Shown here: piece after piece, positions 1 through 41,709 of the stretch
Position numbering within the stretch: position 1 is the first letter of the stretch
Layout: the number at the start of each line of letters is the position of its first letter
NCBI GenBank assembly: GCA_031835245.2
Contig: JAVKOQ020000032.1
Span: 1-64,000, forward strand
Length of the DNA stretch: 64,000 nucleotides
Direction: 5' to 3'
From: Balamuthia mandrillaris
Lineage: Eukaryota
Position numbers and translations under genes: made by a program
Notes under the pieces: generated by a model
What the model was told of the DNA's origin: nothing
The model's input: only the letters and a program-made list of their open reading frames with translations
The model's database searches: none

Positions 1-3000
1 CCCGTTGGTTGCACCACCACCGCACTTTAGGGTTTTTATTTTGTTTGTTTGTTTGTTAGTTTGTTTGTTTGTTGGTAGCATTTCGTTGGTTGGTTGGTTT
101 GCATTGTAACTTAAGGCTCATATGTTTCCAGTTGCTGCTATTGGTAGCCCAGAGGCCGAAGCTGAGATCCTCAGCAAATTTAACCCCAGCAATCATGCGT
201 TCTTTTTAACCCTTTATCTCTCTTTTCTCTTTTCCTTTTGTCCATCATTGTTATTATGGTTATTGCTGTTGGGGTTATTGGTTTATTTTTTTTGTTTCCT
301 TGTGAGTAACTGAGCCTCTGTGTTTTTCTTTCTACCTACCAACCAACCAACCAACCAACCAACCAACCAACCAACCAACCAACCAACCAACCAACCAACC
401 AACCAACCAGACTCATGGAGAGTACATCTCAGGATAGGTGTCTTGAGCGGTAACACTCGCTTAGCCACACTGCAAGCCTTGCTAAAGGCAAAGCAAGCAG
501 CAGTCAATGCAGCAGCAGCGGCGGCAGCAAGTTCAGCATCGCTATCCCCTGCTGCTGCTGCTGCTGCTTCACTTGGCCTACCTTCATCATCGCAAGAGAG
601 CCCCATGCCTTCTGGTGGGACCATCAACAGCATTCTCTTCACTCCTCCTTCTACTCCACTGAGAACCACAGCTATTGTAGCTGCCTCGCCTACTAGCCCC
701 CCCTCTGCCTCTTCATCAGCTGCTGCTGCTGCTGCTGCTGCTGCCTCTTCTCCTCAGCAAAGGGTGGCAGCAAAGTTGTCGGACAGCGATCTTAACGCGG
801 TGTATCGTTCGGCTAGCGATGTAGTACGGCGTTATCAGCTCGCCGATGAGAACGGCGCATGGTTATCGCCACTTATGCCCATCTACGGTCGATATTTCAA
901 CATTATTCATCTACTGTCACTGCCGGTGCATCAGATTGTGTCCATGGTGGAAGACCCCAACACCAAAGTGAAGCCCCGAGAATGGTCATTTGCAGACACG
1001 TTGCTGAAACTGGCCAATGCCGTGCAACTATCAAAAACTGAGTATGTTCTTCTTTTTATTTATTTGTTTGTTTGTTTGTTTGTTTGTTTGTTTGTTTGTT
1101 TGTTTGTTTTTATATGGCCCTTGGTTATCTGACCTAACTACCTCTCAACTTACTGCTATGTGTATGTGTTGTGTTGTTGCATTGTCAGTGCAATGGATCA
1201 GATTCAAAGCAACAGGGCCTTGAAAGTGGCGCTTGCTGCTGCAGAACATATTTTCGATGAGGCCAAATCAAAGAAAAGCCTACCTCCACGGGAGACGCTC
1301 CCCTATTTTGTGCTCACCAAACAGGATTTGCCAGCAGCTCATGCGAAATCCTTTACACTCAACGCTTTTAGACAAGATCTCTCCCTGGTGGAGCATATGT
1401 CCATCGACGTTATTTCCCAACTGGCAGCAGAGAACCGGGGTCTCATTTCGAAAACCGACTTTCGTCTGCTGCACCCCTTGGCTCCAGCCATCCAGAAGCA
1501 GTTGGTGTTTTATTATTACATTCCCATGGTGGTCAGCCCTCCATCTGAAGTAAATACAGAGCTAAGCAAAACCTTTCTGAGGTTTTGTAGACGCAAGGTC
1601 CGTTTATCATTATCTGTTTGTTTGTTTGTTTGTTTGGTTGGTTGGTTGGTTGGTTGATTGTTTCAATTGGTGGGTGGGTGGGTGGAAGGAAAGTGCTAAC
1701 TCTCGCTTACTTTGGGTGGCTGCAGGCCCAAAACGAGGGAATCATCCAGGAATTGGGTGATATCGTGGCCAATGGCTTACGCTGCCATGGCAGCATCGTT
1801 GAAGGACCCTGGATCGTCAACGGTCTGGAAAATCCACGGTGGAAGTGGCTGGCGCAATCCATTCGCAAGGGTCATTGGGACGTGCTGCATCAGGCCGCTC
1901 TTGGTCTTGACCGTGGCAAAGAAGTCTTGCCGATGGATCCATCGCAACAACAACAACCGTTGGATGCGACTTCCTCCCAGTCCAGCAGCAGCAGCAGCAG
2001 CAGGTTTTATGAGACACCAACTGGAAGTTGGATCCGTAACCTCATTAACGCTGCAGTGTATAGCATTCTGAAGGAGATGCCCTCCTCGGATGAACGGCGC
2101 AACCGCAAAGGACGCGTTTTTCAGGGTTCCTTCACCCGGGAAGAACTGTTGTTAGTATATAGACAACTCCCTCTCGGCCTGCAGAAACTTTTCATGTTAT
2201 TACGGGCCAAAACTATCCAGTATGTTGCTCCTCTTTCGCTTGGTTGCTTGCTTGCTTGCAATGCAAGACATGTTATCCTTGCCACCTCTCTATATTCCCT
2301 TTGCCTGTTTACTCACTCGCTCGCCTCCTTGCTTGCTTGCTTGCTCATAGTGATAGCGCAACACACGAGGAGAATACCCGTTTGCCACCGCTGCGCCAAG
2401 AATGGTTGAACGAGTCATCTTTGGCAGATGCTCTAATGTCAGCTACCCCCTCAAAGCCAACAACGAGCAGCCATCGAACCAAAGTGCAACAAAAGGCGAT
2501 ATTAGCAGGAGGGGAAGAGGAGGAGGAAGAAGAAGAGGAAGAAGGTGAAGAGCAACAACAACAAGAAGAAGAAGCGGCAGTGATGGAGGAAGATCCAGAA
2601 GCCTTCTTATATCCCCCATTGGACGGCCAGCAATTAGAGCAAGCAGCCCGAACGGAAGCGATGGTAGAGAAACAGCATTCCGCCAAGGAAAAGTTGTTCC
2701 AATACCGTATGAAGCTAATCCATTATTGTCCTCCCTTTACGGTGCAAGAAGCCTTGGCAGAGAACGCGTTGAACTTTGCCAGTCTGAAATCCTTGAAAGG
2801 CATGCGCATTTCTACCAGCATCAACCTTTCTGGACCTTTGGAGGATGTCAAGCGGTTGATGCTTGCTGTTCGTCGCTGCTTGGTGAAGGAAGCGCAACAA
2901 CATAATACTCCGCTGGAGTTGGATCCTTTGGATAGAAAGCTCTGGAAGACACGCATTCGTCATCCGGTTCGTTCTCAGCTGGAGCGAGTGTGGCCGCACA

Positions 3001-3393
3001 TCACACTGGAAAAATCCAGCAAACCTGAGCGACGGCGAAGCAAAAGCAAAAGCAAAAGCAGCAGCAGCAGCAGCAGCAGCAGCAAAAGCAAGAACAAGAG
3101 TAAAGCTAGCAGCAGCTCTGCTACCACTAAAGTGCCTGCAGACCAGTTATACAATGCAGCTGCTATTGTGCATGTAAAGGACTTGCCTGAGCTGGATGCT
3201 ATATCACCACTCGCGGCTGATTGGTAAGTTGTTTGTTTATTTGTTTGTTTGTTTGTTTCATAGGAAAGGAACAATTCACCACTCTCTACCAACCTCCTCC
3301 CATTTACTCGCTTTTTAACTTTTTGTCTTTCTTTCTCTCTCTTTTTCTCTTTCTTTCTCTCTCTTTATTTCTCTCTCTTTATTTCTCTCTCTT

Positions 3394-3431
<38 letters not shown>

Positions 3432-5173
3432 TCTCTCTCTCTCTTTCTCTTTCTCTTTCTGTCATTCTCCAGGGATTTACAATATGTGGATCAATTGGAT
3501 AACAAAACATGGCAGCCTATCCATACCACCTCTACCCAAGTCGGCAATACAGAAATGAAGAGGGAGAAGCATCGTGCCAAACGCCATTCTGTTAGGCACC
3601 AAAAAGCCATGGACAAGCTGGCTCAGAAGAGCAGTGAGCTGCAGCAAGACATCTCTGTCGATGCCAGCCCCTGTATAGACTTGACAGAGTTTTTTGGGCC
3701 TGACCTTCGCTCTTTTGCTGCTGTAGACCAGAGTAGTTTGGATGATGCGGAGTTTAATCTCGATGATGGCAGTATCCTGGGTGGTGGTGGTGGTGGTGGT
3801 GGTGGTGGTGGAAGTGGTAGTGGAAATGCTACCTCAGCTGGTGTGTTCGTAGACACAATGGACCTAGCAGCAACAGCAGAAACAGCGCAGCAACAACCAA
3901 GCTCAACAAAGCGCCCAAGAGCTATGTCCTCTTCTGCCTCTTCCTCTCCTGTGACAAGCAAGAAGCCACGGAAAGCGGATGATGATCAACTGTTGTTGGA
4001 AAAAAAGAAAAAAAAGCAACAACAGAAGCAGAAACAGAAGGACAAGGAGAAGCAGAAGCAGAAGCAGAAGCAACAGCAGAAAAAGAAGAAGAAGGAGAAA
4101 GAGAAGGAGAAGGAGAAGCAGAAGCAGAAGCAGAAGCAAAAGCAACAACAGAAAAAGAAAGAGAAGGAGAAGGAGAAGGAACAGGAGAAGGAGAAGCAGA
4201 AACAACAGCAGAAAAAGAAACAAAAGAAGACTGCCACCGAGTCAGAGGAGTCCGAAGCCTCATCCGCATCAGAGGCATCAGATAAGTCGGAGGAGTTTGA
4301 GGCCTCATCTGAGTCAGAGGCATCAGATAAGTCAGTGGAGTCAGGCAAGTCAGAGGAAGAGGAGGAAGAGGAGGAAGAGAAGGAGGAGGAGGAGGAGGAA
4401 GAACCCAAGAAGACAGAGAAGCTTGCAACTTCCACCAAGTCTACTGCTCCTAGCATCAGCAGTAACAGCAGCAGCAGCAGCAGCTCCTCAGATGATGATG
4501 ATGATGAGATTGCCAGTCTCATGAGCCTTGATATCACTAATGTAGCAGGTAAGAGGCGCTCACGTTTGGTGTTACTTACAACAACTCACATATGCACTAA
4601 CCACACTTGCTGGCATGCATGTATACATGCATGCATGCAGATACACGTGATGGTGCTGGAGATAGCAAAACAAAGTCAGATATTCCCAACCAGACAGCTC
4701 CTTCAACAGCTGCGATGGTGGATAAAGATATTGATGATTCCATACTGAGTGTTGGAATGTATGTATTTTTATTTCATTTGTCCATTCGAGTTTGGTTCTC
4801 TATCTGTCCGTCTGTCTGTCCATCTGTCCGTCAGTTTTTCTACTAGCTTTGTGTTTTGTCTCTCTTTTGTTGGTTTACTCGTTTTCTGTTTGTTTGTTTG
4901 TTTGTTTGTTTGTTTGTTTGTTTGTTTGTTTGTTTGTCCTCTTCCTCGTGGTGTTTTTTTTTTGGGCTTTTCAGTTGCAATTCTATGCTTATACAGTGGC
5001 GCTCCGTCGGAGCGGCAGCTTTTTAACTCCAGTTTTGTTCTTATTATTATTTGTATTTCTTGTTGGTTGTCTTTTTGGTGTTGATTGTTTAGCGCTCCAG
5101 CGGAGCGCTATCTTTTTGGAGTTTGTTTGCACTGTTATGCCTTTGTGATTTCTCATTCAAGCCTTACTGATTT

Positions 5174-5205
<32 letters not shown>

Positions 5206-5631
5206 CTAGTATCAAAAAAACCTGCTAATGGCCCAGAGAAACAAGCAGCAGCAGCAGCAGCACAAAATGAAGAAGAGGAGGAGGAGGAAGAAGAACAAGA
5301 AGAAGAAGAAGAAGAAGAAGAAGAAGAAGAAGAAGAAGAAAAAGAAAAAGAAAAAGAAGAAGAAAAAGAAAAAGAAGAACCAAAAGCAGCAGAAGCAGAA
5401 GCTGGCGAAAAAGAAGCAGAAAAACAGAAAGAAGAGGAAAACACAAGTGCTACTAAGAGCCCTAGCAGCAAATCTACGCGCAAGGCTGCAGCTGCTGCTC
5501 AAAAGGCTATTGCTACTGCTGCTGCCAAGTCATCTTTGCAAAGAGCTGCTGCTGCCGTGGCTGCCTCATCTAGCAGTAGCAGCAGAAAAGGAGCCACAAC
5601 TCGTTCACAACGCCGTAACTCAGGCAGGTGA
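1..5631 (+). pseudogene. Large multi-exon gene of the YR element (ParB-like motif; K/E/S-rich C-terminus), 5' end outside the window
   Basis: Phase-consistent GT-AG exons: <1-31, 116-~198, 411-1041, 1189-1597, 1726-2219, 2357-3223, 3473-4548, 4641-~4758, 5210-5631 (TGA). The ~198/411 junction phase is unresolved. A 5-bp deletion at ~4748 relative to copy B (TAGAC) shifts the frame before the last exon. Confidence 0.6.
338..408 (+). repeat. (ACCA)n microsatellite in intron
   Basis: Directly visible tandem tetramer. Similar (GTTT)n, (CT)n and (ATCT)n tracts fill most introns in the window. Confidence 0.95.
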
Positions 5632-5696
5632 TCTCTTCCTCTTTTTCGTTATATTAGTTTGGTTGTTTGAGAGAAAGCTTGAGTTAGTTGATTGGT

Positions 5697-7322
5697 ACAA
5701 CGACAACAACAACTACAACAACAATCATTAGAAAGGACGACCTCTTCTTCTTCTTCTTTTTCTTCTTCTTCTGCTTTTTCTTCTTCTTCTTCTTCTTCTT
5801 GTTCTCCTTCTTCTCCTCCTCCTTCTTCTTCTTCTTCTCTCCCTTCTTCTCCTCCTTCTTCTTCTTCTTCTTCATCTTCTTCATCTTCTTCTTCTTCTTC
5901 TTTGTGTTCTTCTTCTTCTTCTTCTTCTTCTTCTTCTTCTTCTTTTTCTTTTTCTTCTTCTTCTGCTTTTTCTTCTTCTTCTTCTTCTTCAAATTCAGAG
6001 TCCTTTGTCTTTGAGAACAATGATGGTGATGTTATGGATAGCGGTGATGACAGTAATTTATCATCATCATCATCATCATCATCATCCTCATTAAGAGGAA
6101 GAAGAGGAGGAGTAGAAACAGATATAGATGCAACAAGCAAAACAACAACTCCACCAACATTGATAGATTTGTTGTTGTTAACTGAAGACGAAGAAGAAGA
6201 TGAAGAAGAACAAAAAGAAGAAAAACAAGGAAAAAAGAGAAAAATAGAGAAACAACAAAATAGAGCTAGAACAAAGGATGATACTGATGACGATACTACA
6301 CATGATAGCAGTAGTAGTAATGGTGGTGGTGATGGTGGAGGAAGACGTCTTTCTCGTGCTATCACATTGATGAACCGTTTGACAGAAGAGCGGTGGACAG
6401 AGTTGACGGCAGTGACGAGTCGATGGAGCCCTTCTACCCAACGTAAACATGCCTGGACTTTGGCCATCTGGGAAGCACATTGTGGGCATCATAAATGTTT
6501 GCCAGCTCTTCCTTTGAATCTCCAACGTCATAACGTAGGAGCCTTTGTTCAATGGTTGATTTTGGATGTGGGTTATGCCTTGAGCTCTGTGCGCGATGTC
6601 ATGATTGCCAGTCTTTATCGTTTGCATGATGAAAGTATCCAACAACAGCTTGACTCCCTTTCTGCATCCTCCTCCTTCTCCTCTTCCTCCTCCTCCTCCT
6701 CCTCCTCCTCTGTTTCCTCCATGATCTCTTCGTCTCCAGCATCATCATCACCTACCACTTCTCCTCCTCCTTCTCCTTTATGCAGAACCATTCTTGGTGA
6801 TGGTGTCACTTGAGCAGCCACAACAGGAGCGACAGGACGCACTACAGCATTGACGGCAACCTCAGACCATGCTTACTTGTTGTTGCTAAAAAACCAAATG
6901 GATGCCATCAAAGATCAAGTCAAACAGGCCATTCGGCATTGCAAAAGAGCCAAACCCTCCTGTTCTAGCAAACAATTGTGCAAAGACGCATGTTTGTTAG
7001 ATGATGTCTTACATATCATCGCATCCACTCCAGATGGACTGGTGAGCAAAGCTGGTGAAGCCAGTTGTTGGTTACACAGTGTTTGTACTGGTGCCAGAGC
7101 CATTACAGCTGCAAACATTCGTTTGGGTGATATTGTGGCATTTCGACCTAAACTTTCATCCTCCTCTTCCAACAACAACAACAATGGCAACCTCAGCTGC
7201 CATCACCAAGAGGATGCATTTTCTGCTCCTCCTCTTTATTTCCTTTCGTTGCGCCAACAAGTCACCAAAGGAATACCAAATCATTGGAATCATGTCGTTA
7301 CATTTGAAGGTTATTTAACACC

Positions 7323-7354
<32 letters not shown>

Positions 7355-8347
7355 TATCATCACGAGGATCATCTTCTTCACCATCACCATCATCATTATC
7401 ATCACCACTTAGCACCGTCACTGCTACGACCTCCGCTGCCGCCGCTGCCACCACCGCCGCCGCCACATCAACAACATCAACACCAAGCATTTGTCTTGGA
7501 GATTTTATTTACTGGTTAAACAAGCATCTGTTATGCAAGCATGGTTTGGATTTGCGCGAGTTTCACAACTGGCGCTTAACGGATGCACAAAAACAAACAT
7601 CATTATGGGGATGGTCACGCGATACTTTAAATGCCAAGTTGCAAGATCGGGCTGTTCGGGCTGGTTATCCTGAAGGATTGTTTTCCTTTCACTCCTTGCG
7701 TGCTGGCTTCCTTTGCACTGCCTTGATCTTGGAGGGACTGCAGGAAGGTCACAGTCAGAACAATGTACTGGATACTACTGCCCTTATCGCAGGTTGGGTA
7801 CCTCGTGGTAGATCCCAGCAAGTCTACGTCAAGGATACATTAAAACGTGCTATTGTGGCCAATCGCTTGGTCAGCAATGTTACTACTCATCCTCATTCTT
7901 CTTCTTCTTCTTCTTCTTCTTCTTCTTCTTCGTCATCTTCATCCTCTGTTGCAACTACCACTGCTGATTATCATCCTCCTCGACATTGCGGTTCGTTACT
8001 GCTCATCTGATTTTTGTTTTTTCTTTTGTTTTTTCTTTGGCTGGGCTGGCTGCCTGACCAGCGTCAATAAACCACTACCACCATCACCACCACCATCACC
8101 ACTACCACTTGATGGACTGACTTGCTCTCTTTTTGGTTCTTTTCATCCTCACTCCCTTGCATGCATACAGTTATTGCGCCAGAGCTAGTTACCAAAGAAG
8201 CATTTCACAATCTATCCCCAGATGCTTTGCAACAATCCAACTGGTCTGCAGATACCAACTATCAGAGTTTTATTCATGCTGTTCGCCAACGGTTTGTTTG
8301 TGTGTTGTTTGTTTGTTTTGTTTGCATAGTATCCACCACCATCACCA

Positions 8348-8403
<56 letters not shown>

Positions 8404-9581
8404 TTATTTATCTATCCAGTCAGTCATGGCTTGTTTGTTTGCTTGCTTGCTTGCATTCAAAAATGCACCCTTAGACCTAGCGCTCAGCTAGAACGCACAG
8501 GTTTATTGTGGCAGCAGCAACATTCATAGTCTAAACAATAATTGTTATGATTGGTCTTGGTTCATTTGTTCTTCTTTTGGCATTCACTCACACTTTGTTT
8601 TTTGTCTCTTTTCCCTTTTTCTTTCTTTCCCTCTTTCTTTCTCTCGCTTTCTCTTTCTCTTTCTCTTGTTCTTTCTTTCTTTCTCGCTTTCTCTTTCTTC
8701 GTTTACACTGCTTCTTTAGGTGGTTCATGAAACAAACAGATTTGCCAACCAAAGATCAACAAATACGATTTTATCGCTCCTTGTGGCTTGAATGTTGTAC
8801 CGCTTGGGTAGAAAATCATCCAGATGAGTTTGATAAGGATGTGCTAGCTGAAGCTGCAGCCACCTATAAGGCCAAAAACAAATCCCCTCTTCGTTGGCCC
8901 AATATTCATCGCCAGCTGTGCCGTCAACACATCTCTGGCATTCTACAAAGCTTTTTCAGTGGCTTGAATGAGCTGGTGGATGAGTTTGTAGCTCCTATAC
9001 TTCCCAAGTTGGTCAATGGATCGCCCATTCACAAAGCATTCCTCACCCCTCGTCAAGAGCAATCATCTTCCTCACTTGCTTCTCTCGACAATGACAATGA
9101 CAAGAGTCCTGACTCAAAAAAACAAACACCACGACGACAACAACTTCGCAGAGCACTTCAGCGACAACAATTGTTATCCAGTCGACTCAAATATCGGAAG
9201 AATGGCCATCAGCAACGAATCGCTTGGCAGGCACCAGAAATCCGTAGACTTGTCACTTGGTGCTTGCGTGATGAATGGTCTTGGTTGGAGATTGCCAAAC
9301 ACTTGCCTACCCAACGTCGAACCAACAATGATTGCTATGATAAATGGCGCAATCTCCTCACAGAATTCTCCAACAATCTGGACGCTTTGAAGGCCAAATA
9401 CTTGGTGGCCCACGATGAGGACTTTGACAAATCGGATGATGATGATAATGACAACACTTCCTCCCCATCATCATCTCCTACTTCTACTACCACTACAGTT
9501 ATATCCATCTTGGATGAAGAGGAAGAGACAGAGGAGAATGATGATGATGATGATGATGATATTATGATTATATCTTGTTAG
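5697..9581 (+). pseudogene. Tyrosine recombinase-Myb fusion, copy A (one in-frame TGA at 6811; 5' part deleted)
   Basis: N-terminal core-binding-like segment WSPSTQRKHAWTLAIWEAHC. Catalytic set: TGAR (R), VTKG (K), HSLRAGF (HxxR), AGW, QQVY (Y). Introns 7991-8170 and 8292-8719 are phase-consistent. C-terminal Myb W-x-W-x-DKWRNL at 9225-9359. Confidence 0.8.
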
Positions 9582-9731
9582 ATTATATAGTCATTCCTAT
9601 ACAAAAATTGAAAAAATTGCTACTTTGACCCACTTTATCCGTTAGACTTATAGACTTAGAGTTTTATAGAATGGACCATGGGGAGTTGAATGCCGTAGGT
9701 TCTGAGTACCCGCCCCTAACCCTACCAAAGT

Positions 9732-11939
9732 GTGGAAGAACATATCAAGCACCTTATCTGTGTTATCCTCACTCTCACTGCTGCGGGACTCCATATCTGT
9801 CGGGAGAAGTGTCAGTTCGGGTACAAACGCCTCTGCATCCTCGGTTTTATCATTGATTGCAGCAATATCCTTCCTGACCAATGCAAGCTCTCCACTTTCG
9901 CACTCCTAGAAGTACCATCCACTGGCAAGCAAATGCAATCCTTCCTTGGCTTTGCAGGCTACCTCTGCGACTTCATCCCCATGTTCGCCCAACTTGTTCG
10001 GCCCCTTGACGCCCTCCGGTACATCAAGGACGTCCGTCCCCATTGGAACCAAGACTGCCAGGACGCCTTTGACGCCCTCAAGCGCATCTTATCCAACCCA
10101 CCTGTGCTCTCTCTCTATGACCCATCCTTACCTCTTTTGGTTGGCACTGATGCCTCCCAATTCGGTGTTGGCGCCGTCCTTTACCAGATCGGACCCAACA
10201 ACAAGCACCAGTACATCATGTTTGCAAGCAAGGCCCTCAACCCTGCCCAACACAACTATCCTGCCACCAAACGTGAGATGCTCGCCATTCTCTTTGCCGT
10301 CCGCTCCTTCAGCGATTGGCTCTATGGCAACAAGTTCACGATCTATTCTGATCACAAGGCTTTGTCCTACCTCTTCACTTCTAACAGTAAGAACTACACC
10401 CTCAACTATTGGGCTCTCCTCATCTCAGAGTACAACTTCAAGATCATCCACCACCCTGGCGTTCACATGATTCTTGAGGACTGCCTCTCTCGGCTGTACC
10501 CGCGCTCCTTCTGGGACAACGGTGGTCTTACACCCCCCTCCATCCCTCTGGACGCCCCTTGCTTGCCTCAGCGCAAACCTCGTGACCTCAAGGCTCTTGC
10601 TTTGGTTGACAACTCCCCATCCACAGCCAAATCCGCTCTTAACAGGCACATCAAGGGCAGACTCAACAAGCAACTCCCTTCCACCTCTGAACGAAAACGC
10701 CTCCTGCAGCTGTTCCACACAGAAGGACATCACGGAGCAGAAACCTTGTTCATCAAGATCTGGAATGAAGGCTATTATTGGCCTACTCTTCGTGCTGACT
10801 GTTCCCGCACTTGCCTACAGTGCAACGACTGCCTTAAGCACAACGTCACCAAACACGGCTTTCATCCCCTCAAAACCATCCACGCTACTTACCCCTTTGA
10901 TCACGTCGCCATTGATCTGTTTGGTCCCCTTCCCACTTCTTCCAAAGGCTTCAACTACGTTCTGGTCACCACAGACATCGCTACCCGGTTCACTTCCCTC
11001 CGCCCAGTCCACGCCAAGACTGCCAAAGATGTGGCCCGCACCCTCTATCAAGTCATCTCTGATTTCGGTCTCCCTAAGATCCTTCAGTCAGACAACGGCA
11101 CTGAGTTCGTCAACGCGGTCATCAAAGCTCTCAAGACACTCTCTGGCTTTGAGCATCAGTTCATCTCAGCCTATCATCCTCGAGCTAACAGAGCTGCAGA
11201 AAGCCATGTCAAGCTGGCCTGCAACACCCTTAACAAGCTCATTAACAGTGATTGGTCTCACTGGCACACCTTTCTTCCTGCTGCCCAATATGCAATCAAC
11301 CAACGCGTTACTCATCGCCACAAGTCTTCCCCTTTCCAACTGTTCTTTGGTCGCCCAGCTACCACTCCACAAGACTATTCTTCTTCCTCTTCCCAGCTTC
11401 CTACCGAAACCCTCCTCTTGGAGAACGCCAAGCAAATGCATGATATTGTCTACCCAGCATCAGCATCTTCTACTCGGAAGCACAGTTCTAACATCAAGGC
11501 TCAACATGATTCTTCTAAGCCACTCCGCGAATTTTCCGCTGGCTCCAAAGTCATGCTACGCAAGCCTCCCAGGTCTCCCAAGTCTCTTCCTGAATACTCT
11601 GGCCCTTATACAGTCATCCGCTGCAATCGTGGTGGTGCATACCTCCTCCAGGATAGCACTGGCGTTACCCTCCCGGACAAGTTCAGCCCCAACCAGCTGA
11701 AGCTCATTGCCCCCCCAGAGGACTCTACTACCAATGACCTCCCACCCGATGAGTATGAAATAGACGAAATCCTTGATCACAAAGGCCCAGCCAATAAGCG
11801 TGAATACTTTGTTCACTGGAAAGGCTACCCACATTCTGATAACCAATGGATCCCTGCTAAAGATGTCCATGCTCCCAAACTCGTCAAACGTTATTGGGAC
11901 CTCCTCAAACAATCCTCTTCACCTTCTACTTCTTCTTAA
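9732..11939 (+). CDS. pol: Gypsy Pol fragment: RT C-terminus, RNase H, integrase, chromodomain
   Basis: EEHIKHL..EKCQFG; RNase H TDASQFGVGAVL / YSDHKAL; HHCC zinc finger; integrase IDLFGP, SDNGTEF; chromodomain YEIDEILDHK..YFVHWKGY. Confidence 0.93.
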   Translation: MEEHIKHLICVILTLTAAGLHICREKCQFGYKRLCILGFIIDCSNILPDQCKLSTFALLEVPSTGKQMQSFLGFAGYLCDFIPMFAQLVRPLDALRYIKDVRPHWNQDCQDAFDALKRILSNPPVLSLYDPSLPLLVGTDASQFGVGAVLYQIGPNNKHQYIMFASKALNPAQHNYPATKREMLAILFAVRSFSDWLYGNKFTIYSDHKALSYLFTSNSKNYTLNYWALLISEYNFKIIHHPGVHMILEDCLSRLYPRSFWDNGGLTPPSIPLDAPCLPQRKPRDLKALALVDNSPSTAKSALNRHIKGRLNKQLPSTSERKRLLQLFHTEGHHGAETLFIKIWNEGYYWPTLRADCSRTCLQCNDCLKHNVTKHGFHPLKTIHATYPFDHVAIDLFGPLPTSSKGFNYVLVTTDIATRFTSLRPVHAKTAKDVARTLYQVISDFGLPKILQSDNGTEFVNAVIKALKTLSGFEHQFISAYHPRANRAAESHVKLACNTLNKLINSDWSHWHTFLPAAQYAINQRVTHRHKSSPFQLFFGRPATTPQDYSSSSSQLPTETLLLENAKQMHDIVYPASASSTRKHSSNIKAQHDSSKPLREFSAGSKVMLRKPPRSPKSLPEYSGPYTVIRCNRGGAYLLQDSTGVTLPDKFSPNQLKLIAPPEDSTTNDLPPDEYEIDEILDHKGPANKREYFVHWKGYPHSDNQWIPAKDVHAPKLVKRYWDLLKQSSSPSTSS

Positions 11940-11950
11940 GAGGGGGAGTA

Positions 11951-12185
11951 TGTTGGTAAAATCACCAACACTTATCTCAAGACTCCTCATGTTGGATCCG
12001 TCCCGGACCCTCAGCTCTCCTTTCTTTTGTATCCTCCATCCTTCCCTTCTCCCTTTTCCCTTTTCTCTCGGTGTACTTTGAAGCAACATCGGAGATTCAC
12101 TCCCGTTGTCCTTCCTCTATTCTCTTGAATACACTTCTTGTCTCATCACCGACTCTTTTATTCTTGAGGTTGGATTCAACCAACA
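11951..12185 (+). repeat. 3' LTR of Gypsy family 1 (235 bp)
   Basis: Begins TGTTGGT just after the PPT and ends ACCAACA (7-bp terminal inverted repeat). The sequence after it resumes the (CT)n intron of the YR-element gene. Only one LTR is present, so it cannot be cross-checked. Confidence 0.8.
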
Positions 12186-12208
12186 TTTCTCTCTCTCTCT
12201 CTCTCTTT

Positions 12209-12241
<33 letters not shown>

Positions 12242-12256
12242 TCTGTCATTCTCCAG

Positions 12257-14235
12257 GGATTTACAATATGTGGATCAATTGGATAACAAAACATGGCAGC
12301 CTATCCATACCACCTCTACCCAAGTCGGCAATACAGAAATGAAGAGGGAGAAGCATCGTGCCAAACGCCATTCTGTTAGGCACCAAAAAGCCATGGACAA
12401 GCTGGCTCAGAAGAGCAGTGAGCTGCAGCAAGACATCTCTGTCGATGCCAGCCCTTGTATAGACTTGACAGAGTTTTTTGGGCCTGACCTTCGCTCTTAT
12501 GCTGCTGTAGACCAGAGTAGTTTGGATGATGCGGAGTTTAGTCTTGATGATGGCAGTATCCTGGGTGGTGGTGGTGGTGGTGGTGGTGGTGGTAGTGGTA
12601 GTGGAAATGCTACCTCAGCTGGTGTGTTCGTAGACACAATGGACCTAGCAGCAACAGCAGAAACAGCGCAGCAAAAACCAAGCTCAACAAAGCGCCCAAG
12701 AGCTATGTCCTCCTCTGCCTCTTCCTCTCCTGTGACAAGCAAGAAGCCACGGAAAGCAGATGATGATCAACTGTTGTTGGAAAAAAAGAAAAAAAAGCAA
12801 CAGCAGAAGCAGAAACAGAAGGACAAGGAGAAGCAGAAGCAGAAGCAACAGCAGAAGAAAAAGAAGAAGGAGAAGGAGAAGGAGAAGGAGAAGCAGAAGC
12901 AGAAGCAACAGCAGAAAAAGAAACAGAAGGAGAAGGAGAAGGAACAGGAGAAGGAGAAGCAGAACCAACAGCAGAAAAAGAAACAAAAGAAGACTGCCAC
13001 CGAGTCAGAGGAGTCCGAAGCCTCATCCGCATCAGAGGCATCAGATAAGTCGGAGGAGTTTGAGGCCTCATCCGAGTCAGAGGCATCAGATAAGTCAGTG
13101 AAGTCAGGCAAGTCAGATGAAGAGGAGGAAGAGGAGGAGGAAGAACCCAAGAAGACAGAGAAGCTTGCAACTTCCACCAAGTCTACTGCTCCTAGCATCA
13201 GCAGTAACAGCAGCAGCAGCAGGCTCCTCATCTTACAACAACTCACATATGCACTAACCACACTTGCCATGCATGCATGCATGCATGCAGATACACGTGA
13301 TGGTGCTGGAGATAGCAAAACAAAGTCAGATATTCCCAACCAGACAGCTCCTTCAACAGCTGCAATGGTGGATAAAGATATTGATGATTCCATACTGATA
13401 GACGTGTTGGAATGTATGTATTTTTATTTCATTTGTCCATTCAAGTTTGGTTCTCTATCTGTCCGTCTGTCTGTCCATCCGTCCGTCAGTTTTTCTACTA
13501 GCTTTGTGTTTTGTCTCTCTTTTGTTGGTTTACTCGTTTTCTGTTTGTTTGTTTGTTTGTTTGTTTGTTTGTTTGTTTGTTTGTTTGTTTGTTTGTCCTC
13601 TTCCTCGTGGTGTTTTTTTTTTGGGCTTTTCAGTTGCAATTCTATGCTTATGCAGTGGCGCTCTGTCAGAGCGGCAGCTTTTTAACTCCAGTTTTGTTCT
13701 TATTATTATTTGTATTTTTTGTTGGTTGTCTTTTTGGTGTTGATTGTTTAGTGCTCCAGCAGAGTGCTATCTTTTTGGAGTTTGTTTGCACTGTTATGCC
13801 TTTGTGATTTCTCATTCAAGCCTTACTGATTTTTGTTGTTGTTGTTGTTGTTGTTGTTCTAGTATCAAAAAAACCTGCTAATGGCCCAGAGAAACAAGCA
13901 GCAGCAGCAGCACAAAATGAAGAAGAGGAGGAAAAAGAAGAAGAAGAAGAAGAAGAAGAAGAAAAAGAAAAAAAAAAAAAGAACCAAAAGCAGCAAAAGC
14001 AGAAGCTGGTGAAAAAGAAGCAGAAAAACAGAAAGAAGAGGAAAAGACAAGTACTACTAAGAGCCCTAGCAGCAAATCTATGCACAAGGCTGCAGCTGCT
14101 GCTCAAAAGGCTATTGCTACTGCTGCTGCCAAATCATCTTTGCAAAGAGCTGCTGCTGCCGTGGCTGCCTCATTTAGCAGTAGCAGCAGAAAAGGAGCCA
14201 CAACTCGTTCACAACGCCGTAACTTAGGCAGGTGA
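12257..14235 (+). pseudogene. 3' exons of the large YR-element gene, copy B
   Basis: Matches 3473-5631. An ~85-bp deletion near 13230 removes the splice donor equivalent to 4549. Confidence 0.75.
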
Positions 14236-14638
14236 TCTCTTTCTCTTTTTAGTTATATTAGTTTGGTTGTTTGAGAGAAAGCTTGAGTTAGTTGATTGGT
14301 TGGTTGGTTGGTGGTAATAATACTGGTTAAACAATGGATGGATGGATGGATGGATGGATGGATGGATGGATAGATGGATGGATGGTAGAACAGTGATGGT
14401 GGTGGTGGCAGTGATGGTGATGGTAAGAGTTGTTAAGCATAGCATGGTGAATAAGGGAGTGAGTGACATGACAAATAAGCAAAAACAGTAGTATTGTTGC
14501 AAATAATAATACTAATAGAAAGACAACAAGAAATGTAAACAAACAAAGAATGAAAAGGCAATTATAAAAATGAACCTCCTGCTACTGCCAGATGTAAAAA
14601 GGAAAGAAAGAAAGAAAAAAAGAAAGAAAGAAAGAAAA

Positions 14639-14673
<35 letters not shown>

Positions 14674-15072
14674 GAAAGAAAGAAAGAAATGATCAAGAAT
14701 GGAAAGGAGAGGAAAAACAAAAACAAGTCTCCAAATAGTTCTCATTATTTATTATTATCTATATCTTCATTCATCCAGACTAGACCTACTAACTTCTTGT
14801 TTCTTTTGTTTCCATTTGTTGTTTGTGTTTGTGTTTGTGTCTACAATTTGCTTGTTTAACAACAACAACAAACAGAAGATAATATATCTATTCCTGCTGT
14901 CTTTGACCAACCACCACCACTAAACAACAACAACAACAAAGAGGTAGCAATAGCAATAGCAGCAGCAACAGAAGAGGATGATAAAGTAACAATTGTCTCA
15001 ATTTCATCATCCTCATCCTCATCAGCAACATCTTTCAATCATCACTTTGCTCCCTATCAGGCTCTCAACACT

Positions 15073-15463
15073 TGTTGGCAACTGCCAACATAACCAACTC
15101 TTTCTTCATTTCTTTCTTCATTTCTTTTCTCTTTTCTGTCAACAATCTCACATCAGCTATCATCAATCTTTTATGTTGACACCAAGCCATTCCAAAGATC
15201 TTTCTCCTGCCTTCCCTGGAACTTTCCCGAGCCTAGAACTTAAGAACAAAGAAACCAAGAAGTCACTCCCCAACCCCGAGCCCCTTTCCTTCCTTGGTTG
15301 CCTTCTCAACTATAAATACTTTTCCCACAACCAAGAACAGACAGATGAATGAACAAAGAAACAAGACACTCACAAACACACTTGTTTTCTTCCTCTCATT
15401 AAATACATTTGGCTCCCATCTTTCTCTTGGTTCCTGTCTTGGTTCTATGCTCAGGTTCTAACA
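15073..15463 (+). repeat. 5' LTR of Gypsy family 2
   Basis: Direct repeat of 20481-20871; TGTT...AACA ends; TATAAAT inside. Confidence 0.96.
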
Positions 15464-15493
15464 TTTTTTTTTGACAAGTCAAACCATTTGGTG

Positions 15494-18400
15494 ATGGAAG
15501 CTTTGCAACAGACACAACAGCAACAGCCGCAAAGCATGGCAACGGGAAACACAAATCAACTGCCTACTTCCGCTGGTGGTTTGTCATCCATAGATTCTCG
15601 GCAAACAACCGCACAACAAATCTTGGCACTTCTGCAGCAGCAACAACAGCAACTGCAGCAGCAACAAATACAACTGCAATCTCTCCTTCAACAGCAATCT
15701 CTTGCTTCTTCAGCACCGGCTGCTTCTTTGTCATCTTCAGCTGCCTCAGGTATAGGTGGTTCGGCTTCTTCTATGCTGCAAACAGTGACTCCTTCTGATT
15801 CAACCAGTGCTGCTTGACCACGGCCAAATCCTTTGGGCTTCAACGCTGATCCGTACTCAGCTCTTTGGTTGCAACAAGAACAACTGCAGGCCCGGATTCT
15901 GGACCCTTCTGTTAATGTGGACACCCTTCAGCAAGAATTAGATGACTTGACTGCGTGTTTTGCTCTTGTAAAGAGAACTTCTGAACTGCGTATTCCTGGC
16001 CAAGATCCACAGACTTCTTCTGACAATTCTCCCGCTGTGCCTCAACTCCAGCGACACATCCTCCCTGTCTCCAAAACGGCTGCAACATTGTCCACCTCAA
16101 TGGTGCTTCCTCAGTCATTCCAAGTCCGACCTGCTTCCGCTTCTTCATCCCTGTCTCCCTCTTCTTCTTCATCATCTGCAACTATTCCCCCTTTGCCTCG
16201 CCGACTGCCCGAATTCAATCCTGCAAAGCACAACACCGTCTCCTTCCTTGAGCGCTTCAAAATGATCCTTGACGTCCATCATTACCCGCCAGATCTTTGG
16301 TACCTTGCTCTCATCTCTCAAATCACTGATCCCGATGCCTTCCACTGGGCAAAGCAAACTTTGGCTTCCGACATGACCTGGGAAGACATTCATGCTGAGT
16401 TTTTGGATCACTTTACATCTCCTGAGTACGAATCCAAGCTTCAGGATGAGTACCACAGTTTCAAGGCCAAACCTGGTGAGACTGTTCGAGCTATTGGTGA
16501 TCATCTTCATTCCCTTCGTGACCAGATGGTGAACAAGCTGTCTACTCCCGTGTTGTTGCACAAGTTTCGGTTGGCCCTTCCTAAGGACATTTGATGAATT
16601 TACATTGGTACTGTCCTCTCAAAGGCTCCTCACTCCTTGGATGAAGTGATCAACATCGCCCTGGTGATTGAAAGCGACCTCTGGGACCCTGATCAGACGA
16701 CTCCTACTGATGATGGTAGCAAAAAGAAGAAGCAACGACCTTACTGTAAGGTCCACAAGATGTTTGGACATAATACATCCGACTGTCATGTGCTTCAACA
16801 CAGGAAACAGCCCAATGGTTCGGGTAACACCTCTTCATCATCATCTAGTACTTCTTCTTCTCCTTCTGGTGCCTCCTCTTCTGGACCATCCCCAGCAACA
16901 AAGTCCAAGAGCCACATTACATGCTACAACTGCAACCAGAAAGGCCATTACTCCAATGAGTGCCTGCTCCCTAAGAAGAAGCCACCAGCTTTGCTCAACT
17001 CTCTTGATGACTCGACTCCTTCCCCTCCTGCGCAACCCTCTGGCAATTCCCTGTCTGCTCTTCATACCGATGATTCATATGAGGAATACAATCATGCTAT
17101 CAACAAGCTCCAAGCTGATTCTCTTTTTCAGCTTGACGCCAACAACGATGACTCTTCTTTTGACAAAATCTGTGTGCCTGCCTTGATTAACAACCATCTG
17201 GTATCCGCCTTTCTTGATACTGGCGCTTCTCGCTTGTTTATTGACTTGGAGACTGCTAAGAAGTTCCACGTCTGATTTCATCTGTTGAAATCTTCCATGA
17301 CCCTTGGCGCTAACAACTCGGTAGCAGAAGTTCACAGCGTAGCCCTCTCTGTTCTGGTCACATGTGGAAAGCTTTGTTTCCATCATCACTTCTGCATCCT
17401 TTTGCTCTCTCAGAGTGAAACAGTCATTTTCGGCCGCGACATGCTGAAGAAATTGGGCCTTGAAATTAGTGGTATTCCCATCAATTTCCCTTCTGCTTCT
17501 CCTTCACCTCCTGATGATTCCAATGTCACGACTCCCAAGCAATATCATGAGAAGTCTCTTCCTCCATCCAAGCAGCAACATATCATCAATGCTATTCAAG
17601 ACCTCTTGGATGTTAACCAACAGCTTCCAGTTGGGCCTTCTTCTCCTCTTCATCAAGCTGTTTTGCATCTCAATATGAATAATCATCGACCCATATTCCA
17701 ACACCAGTACCCCCTTCCTCACGCCTACCACGCTGCTGTTGATGAGCAAATTGAATCCTGGGCCAAGCACCAAGTCATCATTCCTGCCCTGGATGATTGC
17801 CCTTGGAACAGTCCCATCCTAGCTGTTCCCAAAAAGGATGCCTCTGGTCAACTTACTGCAGTACACGTTTGTATTGACCCTCGAGCTATCAATTCTGTTT
17901 TAGTGGATGACATCTACCCTATTCCCCCCATCCTTGACATTGTGGAACGTGTTGCTGGTTTCTTTGTGGCTTCTTTGTTAGATCTTATTTGGTCCTTCAA
18001 CTAAATCCTTGTTGCCCCTGAAGACCAGCCCAAACTTACCTTCACTTGGAAAGGCAAGCGTTGGATGTTCTGTGGTGCTTCTTTTGGCATCAAGACAGTT
18101 CCCTCATGTATGCAGCGTCTGATGACCGTCATTCTCAATAAACTATGCAATTGTTCTGCCCACTACATTGATGATTGTCTAGTGCACACCAAGTCATCTT
18201 CTTCTCTTGATGATCATATCTGTGATCTTCATGCTGTTATTTCTGCTCTCAACAACACGCGCCTTCATCTTTGAACCGAGAAATGTCATTTTGGCTTCAC
18301 GCAGATCAGGCTTGTTGGATTCATTGTTTCCTCCACCAGCTTTGCCCCTGATTGGGACAAATTGTCTGCACTTTGCTCCTTTCCTACTCCTACTACTGGA

Positions 18401-20480
18401 AAGCAGTTGCAATCCTTCCTCGGTTTTGCCAACTTTCTACGGCCTTTCATCCCTCGTTTTGCATGCCTTATGGCTCCTCTTGACGCTCTTCGATATGTCC
18501 ATGATCTCTGACCCTTCTGGACTGCTGATTGTCAAGCTTCTATTGATGCTCTTTGTTGCATCCTCAGTTCGCCTCCTGTCTTGAGCATTCCTGCTCCTGA
18601 TCTCCCTTTTCTTGTTGGAACTGATGCCTCCCAGAATGGTGTTGGTGCTGTTCTCTACCAAGAGACCCCGGACAAGCAACATCGCTACATTGCCTTTGCT
18701 AGCCGTGCACTCAACGATGCCCAGTGCAACTATCCGGCTATGAAACGTGAGCTTCTTGCCGTTGTCTTTGCTCTTCTGCAATTTCAGTGCTGGCTTTATG
18801 GTTGCTGCTTTACCCTTTTCACTGATCACAAGGCTCTCACTTATCTCTTCACTTCCAAGCACTCCAATTATATGCTTAACAACTGGGCCTACATCATCCT
18901 TGAGTACAACTTCGATGTTGTCCATCATCCTGGAATCAAAATGATCCTTGAAGACTGCCTCTCTCGACTCTATCCAAAGAATTTTTGGGAAGAGGATGGT
19001 TCAGCTGGTCTAACCAGGCCGATAATCCCTCAATCTGCAAAAACTCTGACTCCTAAGACCTCCTCATCTTCATCTTCTGCCTTGTCTGCACCTGAGTCAT
19101 CTTCCCTCTCATCTCTTTTTCAGATTGAGCTTGATCAGTTTCCTCCTTCTTCTCTGTCAAAGGATCTTTCTGCCTTTATCAAGACTTTCCACGATAAGAC
19201 TGCCCCCTCATTGGAACAACAACAAGAACTTCTTCAAAAGTTTCACTCTGAAACTCATGAAGGTGCCTCCCATATCTTCAATTGAATTTGGAATGAAGGA
19301 TACTTCTGGCCTTCTCTCTGCTCTGACTGTCACTTTGTCACGTGCTCTTGTGATGCTTGCCGACGCTTCAATGTGGCTAAACATGGCTTTCATCCTTTGA
19401 AGACCATTGCTGCTACTTATCCATTTGACCACATTGCTATCAACCTCTTTGGCCCTCTTCCTTCTGACAAACATGGCTTTTCCTATGTGATGGTACTAGT
19501 TGATATGGCCACTCGCTTCACTCTTCTTCAACCTCTCTCTAACAAAAGCGCTCTTGCCACTGCTCAAGTTCTATACCAGTTTATCTGCAATTTTGGTTTT
19601 CCCAAAATCATTCAATCAGATAATGGTACAGAGTTTGCCAATGCTGTATTGACCGCTTTCAAGAACCTAGCTGGATTTGACCATCATTTCATCTCCTCGT
19701 ATCATCCCTGAGCTAACAGTGCTGCTGAGAGTCACGTTAAACTAGCCAAATCTCTTCTCTTCAAACTTCTCAACAGTGACTGGTCCTCCTGGTCTACAGA
19801 AAGGTATCAACAATTGCTACACCTCTCGTCATTGTTCCTCTCCCTTCGAGCTCTTCTTCGGTCGTCCCTCAAACCCGCCAGACAACTTTTCTTCTTCTAC
19901 CTCTTCACCGCTCTCCCCTGAAGAACGTCAAAAGCAGATTATTGACCTTCGCTCTCTTGTTTGGCCTTCTGCTGCCTCCGCCACTGAAGAATATAATGAC
20001 AAGATTGCTGACTCATTCAACAAGAAAGCTCCTCTTGTTTCCTTTGCTCCTGGTGACACTGTAATGCTTGTAAACTCTGGTGCTAACGCCAAAACTGATC
20101 CCAAGTACCTTGGTCCTTTCTGAGTCATTGAACGTACCTGTCACGGTGCTTACCGCCTAGAAGATCTCACCAGTCAACCTGTTCCTGATACGGTTCCACC
20201 TTCCCTCTTGAAGAAAGTTGATCCACCAAAGCCGCTTTCTTCCCCTTCCTCTTCTTTGGACTCCGCTGATCCTGCTTTGAAACGCTATGAGGTTCACTTC
20301 ATCGTTAATCATCATGGTTCTGCCCGCAACCGTGAGTATCTAGTCCGCTGGAAAGGCTACAGCCCTGGAGGTGACTCCTGGGAACCTCCAAGTCACTTCA
20401 ACGACCCCCGCACTATTGACAATTATTGGAAACATATGCGTAAGAAAGGTAAAATCGCCTCTTCACGGAGGAGGAAGTGA
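15494..20480 (+). pseudogene. gag-pol: Single-frame gag-pol with many nonsense codons and one frameshift (~19790)
   Basis: ORF pieces 15488-19711 share one frame. Zinc knuckles CKVHKMFGHNTSDC and CYNCNQKGHYSNEC; protease LDTGAS; RT PWNSP, YIDD; RNase H TDASQNGVGAVL; integrase SDNGTEF; chromodomain YLVRWKGY. Confidence 0.93.
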
Positions 20481-20871
20481 TGTTGGCAACTGCCAACATA
20501 ACCAACTCTTTCTTCGTTTCTTTCTTCGTTTCTTTTCTCTTTTCTGTCGACAATCTCACGTCAGCTATCATCGATCTTTTATGTCGACACCAAGCCATTC
20601 TGAAGATCTTTCTCCTGCCTTCCCTGGAACTTTCCCGAGCCTAGAACTTAAGAACAAAGAAACCAAGAAGTCACTCCCCAACCCTGAGCCCCTTTCCTTC
20701 CTTGGTTGCCTTCTCAACTATAAATACTTTTCCCACAACCAAGAACAGACAAACAAATGAACGAAGAAACAACACACTCACAAACACACTTGTTTTCTTC
20801 CTCTCATTAAATACGTTTGGCTCCCGTCTTTCTCTTGGTTCCTGTCTTGGTTCTATGCTCAGGTTCTAACA
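20481..20871 (+). repeat. 3' LTR of Gypsy family 2
   Basis: Direct repeat of 15073-15463. Confidence 0.96.
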
Positions 20872-20875
20872 CACT

Positions 20876-22726: not shown

Positions 22727-22760
<34 letters not shown>

Positions 22761-24961: not shown

Positions 24962-25100
24962 ATTATATAGTCATTCCTATACAAAAATTGAAAAAATTGC
25001 TACTTTGACCCACTTTATCCGTTAGACTTATAGACTTAGAGTTTTATAGAATGGACCATGGGGAGTTGAATGCCGTAGGTTCTGAGTACCCGCCCCTAAC

Positions 25101-28800: not shown

Positions 28801-28803
28801 AAA

Positions 28804-28828
28804 CCCTAACCCTTAACTCTAATCCTAA
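28804..28828 (+). repeat. Degenerate telomere-like repeats CCCTAA-CCCTTAA-CTCTAA-TCCTAA
   Basis: Four tandem near-CCCTAA units directly after the non-LTR element 3' end. Confidence 0.55.

Positions 28829-41670: not shown

Positions 41671-41709
<39 letters not shown>

What the first reader, a model, noticed from the sequence alone, without database searches (positions are those of the whole stretch)
9225..9725. Telobox-like Myb motif plus element ends at CCCTAA: possible telomere-repeat-targeting recombinase
Seen: the recognition helix reads RTNNDCYDKWRNL. Copy A ends C-CCCTAA-CCCTA and copy B ends C-CCCTAA-C, and in both cases the next sequence is a 5'-truncated retroelement. Known: TRF/TRB telomere-binding Myb domains carry RTxxxLKD(K/R)WR(N/T), but trihelix/Myb_DNA-bind_4 domains have a similar C.DKW.NL motif. 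Inference: broken ends were healed with CCCTAA and the element then integrated into those repeats, guided by its own Myb domain. Alternatively, CCCTAA is simply the element's own terminal recombination site.
Basis: partly seen in the sequence, partly recalled or inferred. Interest (0 to 1): 0.85.

Follow-up and report, generated by a model that had tools for sequence, protein, structure and literature searches.

The report
Telomere-homing recombinase transposon family
This is the end of a broken copy of a jumping gene in an amoeba whose DNA-cutting-and-joining enzyme carries a reading domain of the kind that grips telomere repeats; its relatives in other microbes sit directly against short runs of telomere-type repeats, so the family likely homes to telomere DNA, although this amoeba's copies appear to carry a fixed stub of repeats as their own end.

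Summary
Observation confirmed. The Myb ends a multi-copy, Cre-fold tyrosine recombinase (YR) gene; its proteins match Balamuthia mandrillaris, whose telomere is TTAGGG. Both window copies are broken. The nearest relative, a second Balamuthia family, has the helix RTNVDCKDKWR, so the motif is telobox-derived, not trihelix. The window's version keeps 3 of 5 TRF1 base-reading positions.

Of 22 metagenome loci found by YR motifs alone, 16 carry a tandem telomere-hexamer tract (5 of 9 lineages; a sixth is degenerate). One runs into (TTAGGG)19. A clade using genetic code 6 forms shuffled head-to-tail arrays separated by 2-8 TTGGGG units and has a different Myb helix. This favours a telomere-repeat-directed Crypton-type family that I did not find in 10 literature searches.

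The 'healed retroelement ends' step is not supported. Reads show other copies continuing to a shared (CCCTAA)2CCTAG end, then variable non-telomeric flanks; A and B are shortened versions of it. Distance to a chromosome end and DNA binding remain untested. This scan noted similar YR-Myb elements on other genomes (unchecked notes).

The parts
110..5631 (+). Multi-exon gene of unknown function upstream of YR copy A; begins before the window start; part of the repeated unit (3406-5696 recurs at 12188-14300)
   Evidence: three Balamuthia paralogs at 83-99% identity; no Pfam family for P0027/P0028 at E<0.05
5696..9581 (+). YR-Myb gene, copy A (5' part deleted at 5696; exons end/start 7990, 8171-8291, 8475-8500, 8740-9581; nonsense codon at 6811-6813). 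Catalytic motifs TGAR 7087, VTKG 7261, FHSLR 7687, AGW 7789, VYVK 7822
   Evidence: Cre-like fold for relative P0024
9225..9356 (+). C-terminal Myb domain; recognition helix RTNNDCYDKWRNL at 9318-9356
   Evidence: PF13921 23.6 bits, PF00249 23.4, PF13837 15.4; 3 of 5 TRF1 base-reading positions
9696..9701 (+). TAGGTT, partial inverted copy of the hexamer 11 nt inside the tract; candidate second half-site
   Evidence: same AACC spacing (11-14 nt) in 4 of 6 tract-bearing relative lineages
9713..9724 (+). Terminal tract of copy A, C-CCCTAA-CCCTA; other copies continue ACCTAG
9725..12185 (+). Chromodomain Ty3/gypsy retrotransposon lacking its 5' half (RT end, RNase H, integrase, chromo, PPT, 3' LTR)
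12188..25103 (+). Unit B: 3' part of the upstream gene, spacer, YR-Myb copy B (nonsense codons at 23007, 24518, 24539; helix 24695-24733), terminal C-CCCTAA-CTAG at 25093-25103
15073..20871 (+). Second, degenerate gypsy LTR element inserted in the 5' part of YR copy B (391-bp LTRs, 96% identical; CACT target duplication)
25101..28528 (+). Non-LTR retrotransposon with RT, CCHC knuckle and restriction-like endonuclease motifs (CRE/MoTeR-like by recalled motifs), one internal stop before and one after the RT
   Evidence: PF00078; translation
28804..28828 (+). Four degenerate CCCTAA units 3' of the non-LTR element, at the border between the element cluster and host genes
   Evidence: within 3 edits of (CCCTAA)4; 0 of 100 shuffles

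Best explanation
The feature is one end of a defective, multi-copy tyrosine-recombinase (YR) DNA element with a C-terminal telobox-derived Myb domain, from a widespread protist family that likely inserts into telomere-type repeats; in this amoeba subfamily about 2.7 repeat units appear to be fixed as the element's own end. Shown: YR fold and catalytic residues, the YR-Myb fusion, the tract at the element boundary here and in relatives, and arrays with variable tract length in one clade. Inferred mechanism, following the Crypton model: the element would excise as a circle. The Myb would bind a hexamer half-site (the tract) and a partial inverted half-site 11-14 nt inside. The YR would exchange strands at a 3-5 bp core (TTGGG in the code-6 clade, GGG in L001/L002), leaving repeats on both sides and building head-to-tail arrays at telomeres or at tracts left by earlier copies. 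The window's subfamily has two changed reading residues (V to N, K to Y) and a constant CCTAG after the second repeat, so it probably no longer needs a true telomere array. A and B would then be insertions into, or deletions next to, retroelements in what is likely a subtelomeric element cluster.
For: Cre-like top fold hits, E 5e-7; R/K/HxxR/W/Y motifs intact. 267 representatives at E<=1e-30; 82 of the best 150 have both HSxR and a Myb. Of 22 loci fetched by YR peptide patterns only, 16 have a tandem hexamer tract, against at most 1 of 100 shuffles per locus. L001 runs from its tail into (TTAGGG)19, and its family member L002 starts after (TTAGGG)3. The code-6 clade (TAA/TAG open, no TGA in most frames) has ~3.1-3.2 kb units with no RT seen, joined at TTGGGG tracts of 2-8 units. 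The same unit is followed by three different units, and the clade's Myb helix differs. Nearest relative P0046 has RTNVDCKDKWR. Host telomere is TTAGGG. In the window, reads give a shared end then variable flanks, and depth of about 770-1000 over the Myb-end exon against at most ~20 expected for single copy (genome size; inference). The cluster's polarity, gypsy insertions and 3' repeat tract resemble MoTeR arrays.
Against: No binding or recombination was measured. Whole-domain scores do not favour TRFs: none of the 17 PDB hits of the window Myb is a TRF, and c-Myb outranks TRF1 for the family. Only 16 of 66 readable family helices match all four TRF1 helix positions. The 22 loci are 9 lineages and 12 loci are one clade; 3 lineages show no tract (L004 none in 1.26 kb upstream). 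L018 has a tract at one end only, between related ~190-bp repeats, with no telomere repeat at the other end. TTAGGG-lineage head tracts are nearly constant at 2-3 units, which fits element-borne repeats. L001 could be a healed break. Host telomere repeats of the metagenome loci are unknown. Short contig-start flanks (5-22 nt) may be assembly artefacts. The window's other element end lies outside the window, and its chromosome position is unknown.
Confidence: 0.6

Rival explanations
1. The hexamers are only the element's own subterminal Myb-binding sites; the family inserts at short, dispersed microhomologies like other Cryptons and has no preference for telomeres.
For: Shared end plus variable flanks and a self-insertion junction in this genome. 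Near-constant 2-3 unit tracts in L002, L006, L009 and L018, and a degenerate tract in L003. L018 lies between non-telomeric repeats.
Against: L001 tail runs into 19 perfect repeats. In the code-6 clade, tract length varies from 2 to 8 even for the same head, tails also end in repeats, and both the repeat and the Myb helix differ from the TTAGGG lineages.
Confidence: 0.2
2. One reading: the gypsy and non-LTR ends were broken, healed by telomerase, and this subfamily then integrated into the new repeats by Myb guidance.
For: Both copies abut truncated or apparently truncated retroelements at CCCTAA. Host repeat is TTAGGG. The cluster resembles MoTeR telomere arrays, with a degenerate tract at 28804.
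Against: The majority of loose ends after 9724 read ACCTAG, not further CCCTAA. B retains the same CTAG. Neither junction is in clean telomerase register. The window Myb has lost the V418 and K421 equivalents. Only a consensus per run was shown, so a minority with longer tracts is not excluded.
Confidence: 0.12
3. The unit is a passive subtelomeric duplication (upstream gene plus a dead or domesticated YR) spread by ectopic recombination between chromosome ends; the tract is a relic of one old healing event.
For: Both copies are broken; 57 of 68 A/B substitutions are transitions. The upstream gene is duplicated with the YR. A shared CCTAG could be descent from one event.
Against: Flanks diverge immediately after CTAG in many copies, and one copy joins into its own ORF. 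The boundary coincides with a head structure conserved in distant relatives. P0003 has an open 489-aa frame.
Confidence: 0.08

Closest known systems
Crypton DNA transposons (Kojima & Jurka 2011, PMC3212892; PMC13465315), especially microsatellite-targeting CryptonV (cited in PMC8869645)
   Same: YR as the only catalytic gene, no RT, an added C-terminal DNA-binding domain, short core repeats rather than TIRs/TSDs; CryptonV shows that YR DNA transposons can target simple repeats.
   Different: The added domain is a telobox-type Myb, not GCR1_C or DUF3504; the repeats are telomeric hexamers; hosts seen are an amoebozoan, an oxymonad and unnamed protists. No Crypton sequences were available for a direct tree.
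TATE of Leishmania braziliensis (PMC6681497)
   Same: YR element in tandem clusters at a fixed position in the telomeric hexamer (GGG^TTA); L001/L002 junctions have the same register.
   Different: TATE is a retrotransposon with gag-like, YR and RT/RH ORFs and split direct repeats; 'Myb' does not occur in that paper's main text. The units here have no RT.
MoTeR telomeric retrotransposons of Magnaporthe (PMC7367193)
   Same: Head-to-tail arrays separated by short interstitial telomere tracts, invaded by gypsy elements; the window's non-LTR element has the same polarity and a 3' repeat tract.
   Different: MoTeR is a non-LTR element using target-primed reverse transcription; it is the analogue of the window's neighbour, not of the YR.
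TRF1/TRF2 telobox Myb domains (PMC5737604)
   Same: R380, D422 and R425 equivalents are present in the window; all five positions are present in L001, L003, P0006, P0008, P0009 and P0026.
   Different: Cys replaces the Leu before K-D; the window has Asn and Tyr at V418 and K421; the domain is fused to a recombinase; whole-domain scores are no closer to TRF than to c-Myb.
Trihelix GT-1 / Myb_DNA-bind_4
   Same: Local similarity over helix 3 (PDB 2ebi, E 0.12).
   Different: PF13837 scores 15.4 bits, below its cut-off of 27; the nearest relative has the telobox helix, so the likeness is secondary.

Membership tests
Crypton (YR DNA transposon) | Tyrosine recombinase with R-K-HxxR-H/W-Y | tested here: met
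   PF00589 E 1.2e-7 for L007 unit
Crypton (YR DNA transposon) | No reverse transcriptase | tested here: met
   ~3.1-3.4 kb units hold no RT-sized second ORF; 0 of the 32 mostly longest family proteins scanned has an RT family. The window unit's far end was not seen.
Crypton (YR DNA transposon) | 4-6 bp direct repeats at both ends | tested here: inconclusive
   TTGGG fits both ends in the code-6 clade and GGG in L001/L002, but these are embedded in repeats; only one end is available in the window
CryptonF / CryptonA / Starship | GCR1_C, DUF3504 or DUF3435 domain | tested here: not met
   no such Pfam hit
CryptonV | YR clade membership and microsatellite target | not testable with these tools
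   no CryptonV sequence available; known only from a citation in PMC8869645
TATE / VIPER-like YR retrotransposons | gag-like and RT/RH ORFs, split direct repeats | tested here: not met
   against the description in PMC6681497
TATE / VIPER-like YR retrotransposons | Tandem insertion at a fixed position in the telomeric hexamer | tested here: inconclusive
   seen in relatives L001/L002 and the code-6 arrays; not shown for the window subfamily
Telobox (TRF-type) Myb | Base-reading residues R380, V418, K421, D422, R425 | tested here: inconclusive
   window 3 of 5; six relatives 5 of 5; P0046 has all four helix positions. Positions from PMC5737604; taking R415 as the Arg that opens the motif is recalled
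Telobox (TRF-type) Myb | Specific binding to duplex (TTAGGG)n | not testable with these tools
   needs a binding assay
Trihelix Myb_DNA-bind_4 | PF13837 above its cut-off | tested here: not met
   15.4 bits against 27
Helitron | 3' hairpin before CTRR, and Rep/helicase | tested here: not met
   no stable fold in 4 of 4 end fragments (z +0.8 to +1.6); no Rep/helicase among the 21 ORFs scanned

The most novel reading that the evidence does not exclude
A previously undescribed, eukaryote-wide family of RT-less tyrosine-recombinase transposons that captured a telobox Myb and use it to integrate into telomere repeats, with the Myb helix and the target repeat changing together across hosts (TTAGGG versus TTGGGG), and with subfamilies such as this one escaping to dispersed sites by carrying the repeats and altering the helix.
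Probability: 0.45. Interest if true: 0.85.

Novelty: new variant of a known kind. Interest (0 to 1): 0.74.

Why it matters
The telomere-targeting elements in the papers I consulted are retroelements (MoTeR, TRAS, TATE), and target-specific DNA transposons are described as rare (PMC8869645). A one-gene YR-Myb element would give a compact, testable system for how a parasite reads the same sequence as shelterin and whether it tracks changes in the host telomere repeat. It would also show a natural pairing of a recombinase with a swappable reading domain. It points to an unannotated source of chromosome-end rearrangement in amoebae and other protists.

Tried and rejected
No whole genome was held, so copies and chromosome distances could not be tabulated. 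A read test of the border near the degenerate tract gave no result; whether the window is near a chromosome end stays open.

Helitron end (CTAG): rejected, no hairpin. The idea that the CCCTA at 9720-9724 is gypsy coding sequence was rejected by reads. Trihelix assignment was rejected.

No relatives in viral contigs (0 of 53 and 0 of 42 pattern matches) or prokaryotic genomes (0 of 26). The window's 17-nt end has no exact match in viral contigs. The Atlas gave only generic integrase-like clusters at 0.92-0.93 for P0024; it gave no answer for the upstream gene or the non-LTR RT.

Earlier-findings look-ups by sequence and place found nothing. The shuffle statistic on the code-6 label in the tree is not used as evidence of co-evolution, because that clade is one lineage of near-copies.

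Full report
Observation. The motif RTNNDCYDKWRNL lies at 9318-9356 and again at 24695-24733, in two copies that are 95.6% identical over about 4 kb. Copy A ends C-CCCTAA-CCCTA at 9724 and copy B ends C-CCCTAA-CTAG at 25103. The 11-mer of A occurs in 0 of 100 shuffles of the window. A is followed by a chromodomain gypsy element without its 5' half, and B by a non-LTR RT ORF.

The gene. The Myb closes a spliced gene (model from P0003/P0004) with TGAR, VTKG, FHSLR, AGW and VYVK motifs. A model of the relative P0024 (alignment of 9 sequences, mean pLDDT 70) matched Cre recombinase first, E 5e-7. Five of 6 hits of the first protein search are named Balamuthia mandrillaris, and passages of bioRxiv 10.1101/2025.02.25.640156 give that species' telomere as TTAGGG, about 90 units, in a 94.77-Mb assembly. 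Copy A lacks its 5' part and has one nonsense codon; copy B has three and a gypsy insertion. Of 68 A/B substitutions, 57 are transitions. An upstream multi-exon gene is duplicated with the YR and has three paralogs, so the unit exceeds 9.7 kb and its other end lies outside the window.

Reads at the junction (4 of the 20 runs listed). Depth over the Myb-end exon in X19 was about 770-1000. If that run's 1850 million letters all came from a ~95-Mb genome, single copy would be about 20, implying roughly 40 or more copies (inference). The gypsy's native sequence continues upstream of 9725 in 1178 and 505 reads. Beyond 9724, 127 reads (X18) and 7 contigs (X1) continue with a consensus starting ACCTAG and then disagree (agreement 0.48 and 0.53); 499 loose-end rows were not shown, among them any row for X19 at this place. 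In 5 (X19) and 7 (X18) reads the end is joined back into the element's own ORF at 9396. The usual end is therefore (CCCTAA)2CCTAG with variable, non-telomeric flanks, and A and B are 6 and 7 nt shorter. This argues against separate healing of the two retroelement ends. Only consensus lines were visible, so a minority with longer tracts is not excluded.

The Myb. By whole-domain score the window's Myb is generic: none of 17 PDB hits is a TRF, Pfam gives PF00249 and PF13921 about 23 bits and PF13837 15, and c-Myb outranks TRF1 for the family. By position it is telobox-like. Passages of PMC5737604 name R380, V418, K421, D422 and R425 as TRF1's base-facing residues (my register on R415 is recalled). 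The window keeps R380, D422 and R425; six relatives keep all five. Its nearest relative in a 130-row tree (119 of 147 proteins kept, plus 10 loci and the window) is P0046, a second Balamuthia family, with 63% core identity and support 99; its helix reads RTNVDCKDKWR. The window helix is thus two substitutions away from a telobox, not a trihelix.

The family. A profile search found 267 representatives at E<=1e-30. Of the best 150, 82 have both HSxR and a Myb; among 66 readable helices D422 and R425 are each kept in 49, and 16 keep all four helix positions. Named members come from Monocercomonoides exilis (3 of 10 clusters) and Balamuthia (1 of 10). None of 32 mostly long members has an RT family. 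No relatives appeared in viral or prokaryotic collections.

DNA context of relatives. Twenty-two loci were fetched with two YR peptide patterns, blind to flanking repeats. Sixteen carry at least two perfect tandem hexamers, against at most 1 of 100 shuffles each. They fall into 9 lineages: 5 have a perfect tract, L003 has a degenerate one, and L004, L005 and L022 have none on contigs that miss at least one end. L002 begins after (TTAGGG)3, and L001 of the same family ends in (TTAGGG)19. Twelve loci read through TAA/TAG (table 6) and form one clade of ~3.1-3.2 kb units joined at TTGGGG tracts. At 18 junctions the tract has 2-8 units, unit c is followed by three different units, and the same head occurs with different tract lengths. 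Their Myb helices lack the V and K positions in 8 of 8 distinct cases. TTGGGG as a ciliate telomere repeat is recalled; the host's repeat was not determined, and this is one lineage, so co-variation rests on a single contrast. AACC lies 11-14 nt inside the tract in 10 of 28 printed tract rows, covering 4 of 6 tract-bearing relative lineages and the window, which marks the window's end as the same 'head'. The YR points toward the head here and, by tract position, in L009, and away from it in the others. Against strict telomere targeting: L018 has the tract at one end only, between related ~190-bp repeats, and TTAGGG head tracts are nearly always 2-3 units.

Window layout. All five elements in the left 29 kb are on one strand. 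Four degenerate CCCTAA units (28804-28828; 0 of 100 shuffles) follow the non-LTR element, and host genes follow, with higher CpG o/e (0.67-0.92 from 32 kb against 0.27-0.56 before). This resembles MoTeR arrays (passages of PMC7367193) and suggests a subtelomere, but nested insertions give the same picture and the read test gave no result.

Mechanism. Shown: fold, motifs, fusion, tracts at boundaries, shuffled arrays. Inferred, after the Crypton model in passages of PMC3212892 and PMC13465315: circular excision, Myb binding to hexamer half-sites, exchange at a 3-5 bp core inside a repeat. The window's subfamily probably carries its tract and has relaxed its target. Confidence 0.6; rivals 0.2 (no targeting), 0.12 (literal healing model), 0.08 (passive duplication).

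Comparison and novelty. It works like TATE (passages of PMC6681497) but lacks RT; it is built like a Crypton but has none of the described accessory domains. CryptonV targets microsatellites (passage of PMC8869645). Ten searches listed no paper describing a YR-Myb telomere element. For most listed papers I saw only the listing and abstract start; eight were read as passages (the seven named above and PMC9528979), none in full, no supplements. Repbase reports and subscription journals were not searched. Three unchecked notes of this scan describe similar elements in other genomes. Verdict: new variant of a known kind, interest 0.74.

Noticed in passing
window 25101-28828: Non-LTR retrotransposon with restriction-like endonuclease motifs and a degenerate CCCTAA tract at its 3' end, with MoTeR polarity; may itself be a telomere-targeted element.
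   Followed up: partly
window 110-5631 and 12188-14235: Multi-copy intron-rich gene with no Pfam family travels with the YR; one paralog model (P0029) is fused to a gypsy chromodomain, suggesting another gypsy insertion.
   Followed up: partly
P0046, P0186: Second Balamuthia YR-Myb family with long open frames and a full telobox helix; better candidate for an active telomere-targeting element than the window's family.
   Followed up: partly
L007-L021: Head-to-tail arrays of at least eight different YR-Myb units from a host using TAA/TAG as sense codons, separated by TTGGGG tracts; a conserved ~150-bp segment follows each stop codon.
   Followed up: yes
L003:1-3567: Contig with 155-nt terminal overlap (3412-bp unit): a tandem array or an excised circle.
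   Followed up: no
L009:3224-3349, 3599-3671: Two sets of inverted telomere-like hexamers downstream of the YR, with a tRNA-Met gene 250 nt further.
   Followed up: partly
L019:3-593: DDE_Tnp_1_7 (piggyBac-type) fragment replaces the head region of an L018-family copy.
   Followed up: no
P0123, P0180: 2064-aa relatives with an N-terminal ubiquitin C-terminal hydrolase domain fused to the YR, recalling peptidase-bearing Cryptons.
   Followed up: no
window 9660-9703: Summed contig depth in X1 and X16 is 2-3 times that of the ORF, hinting at non-autonomous copies that share the end (a weak measure).
   Followed up: no
window 38762-41746 and 59613-60518: Host RhoGEF-PH gene, and a minus-strand ORF with a 21-nt YDGGD-type repeat.
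   Followed up: no
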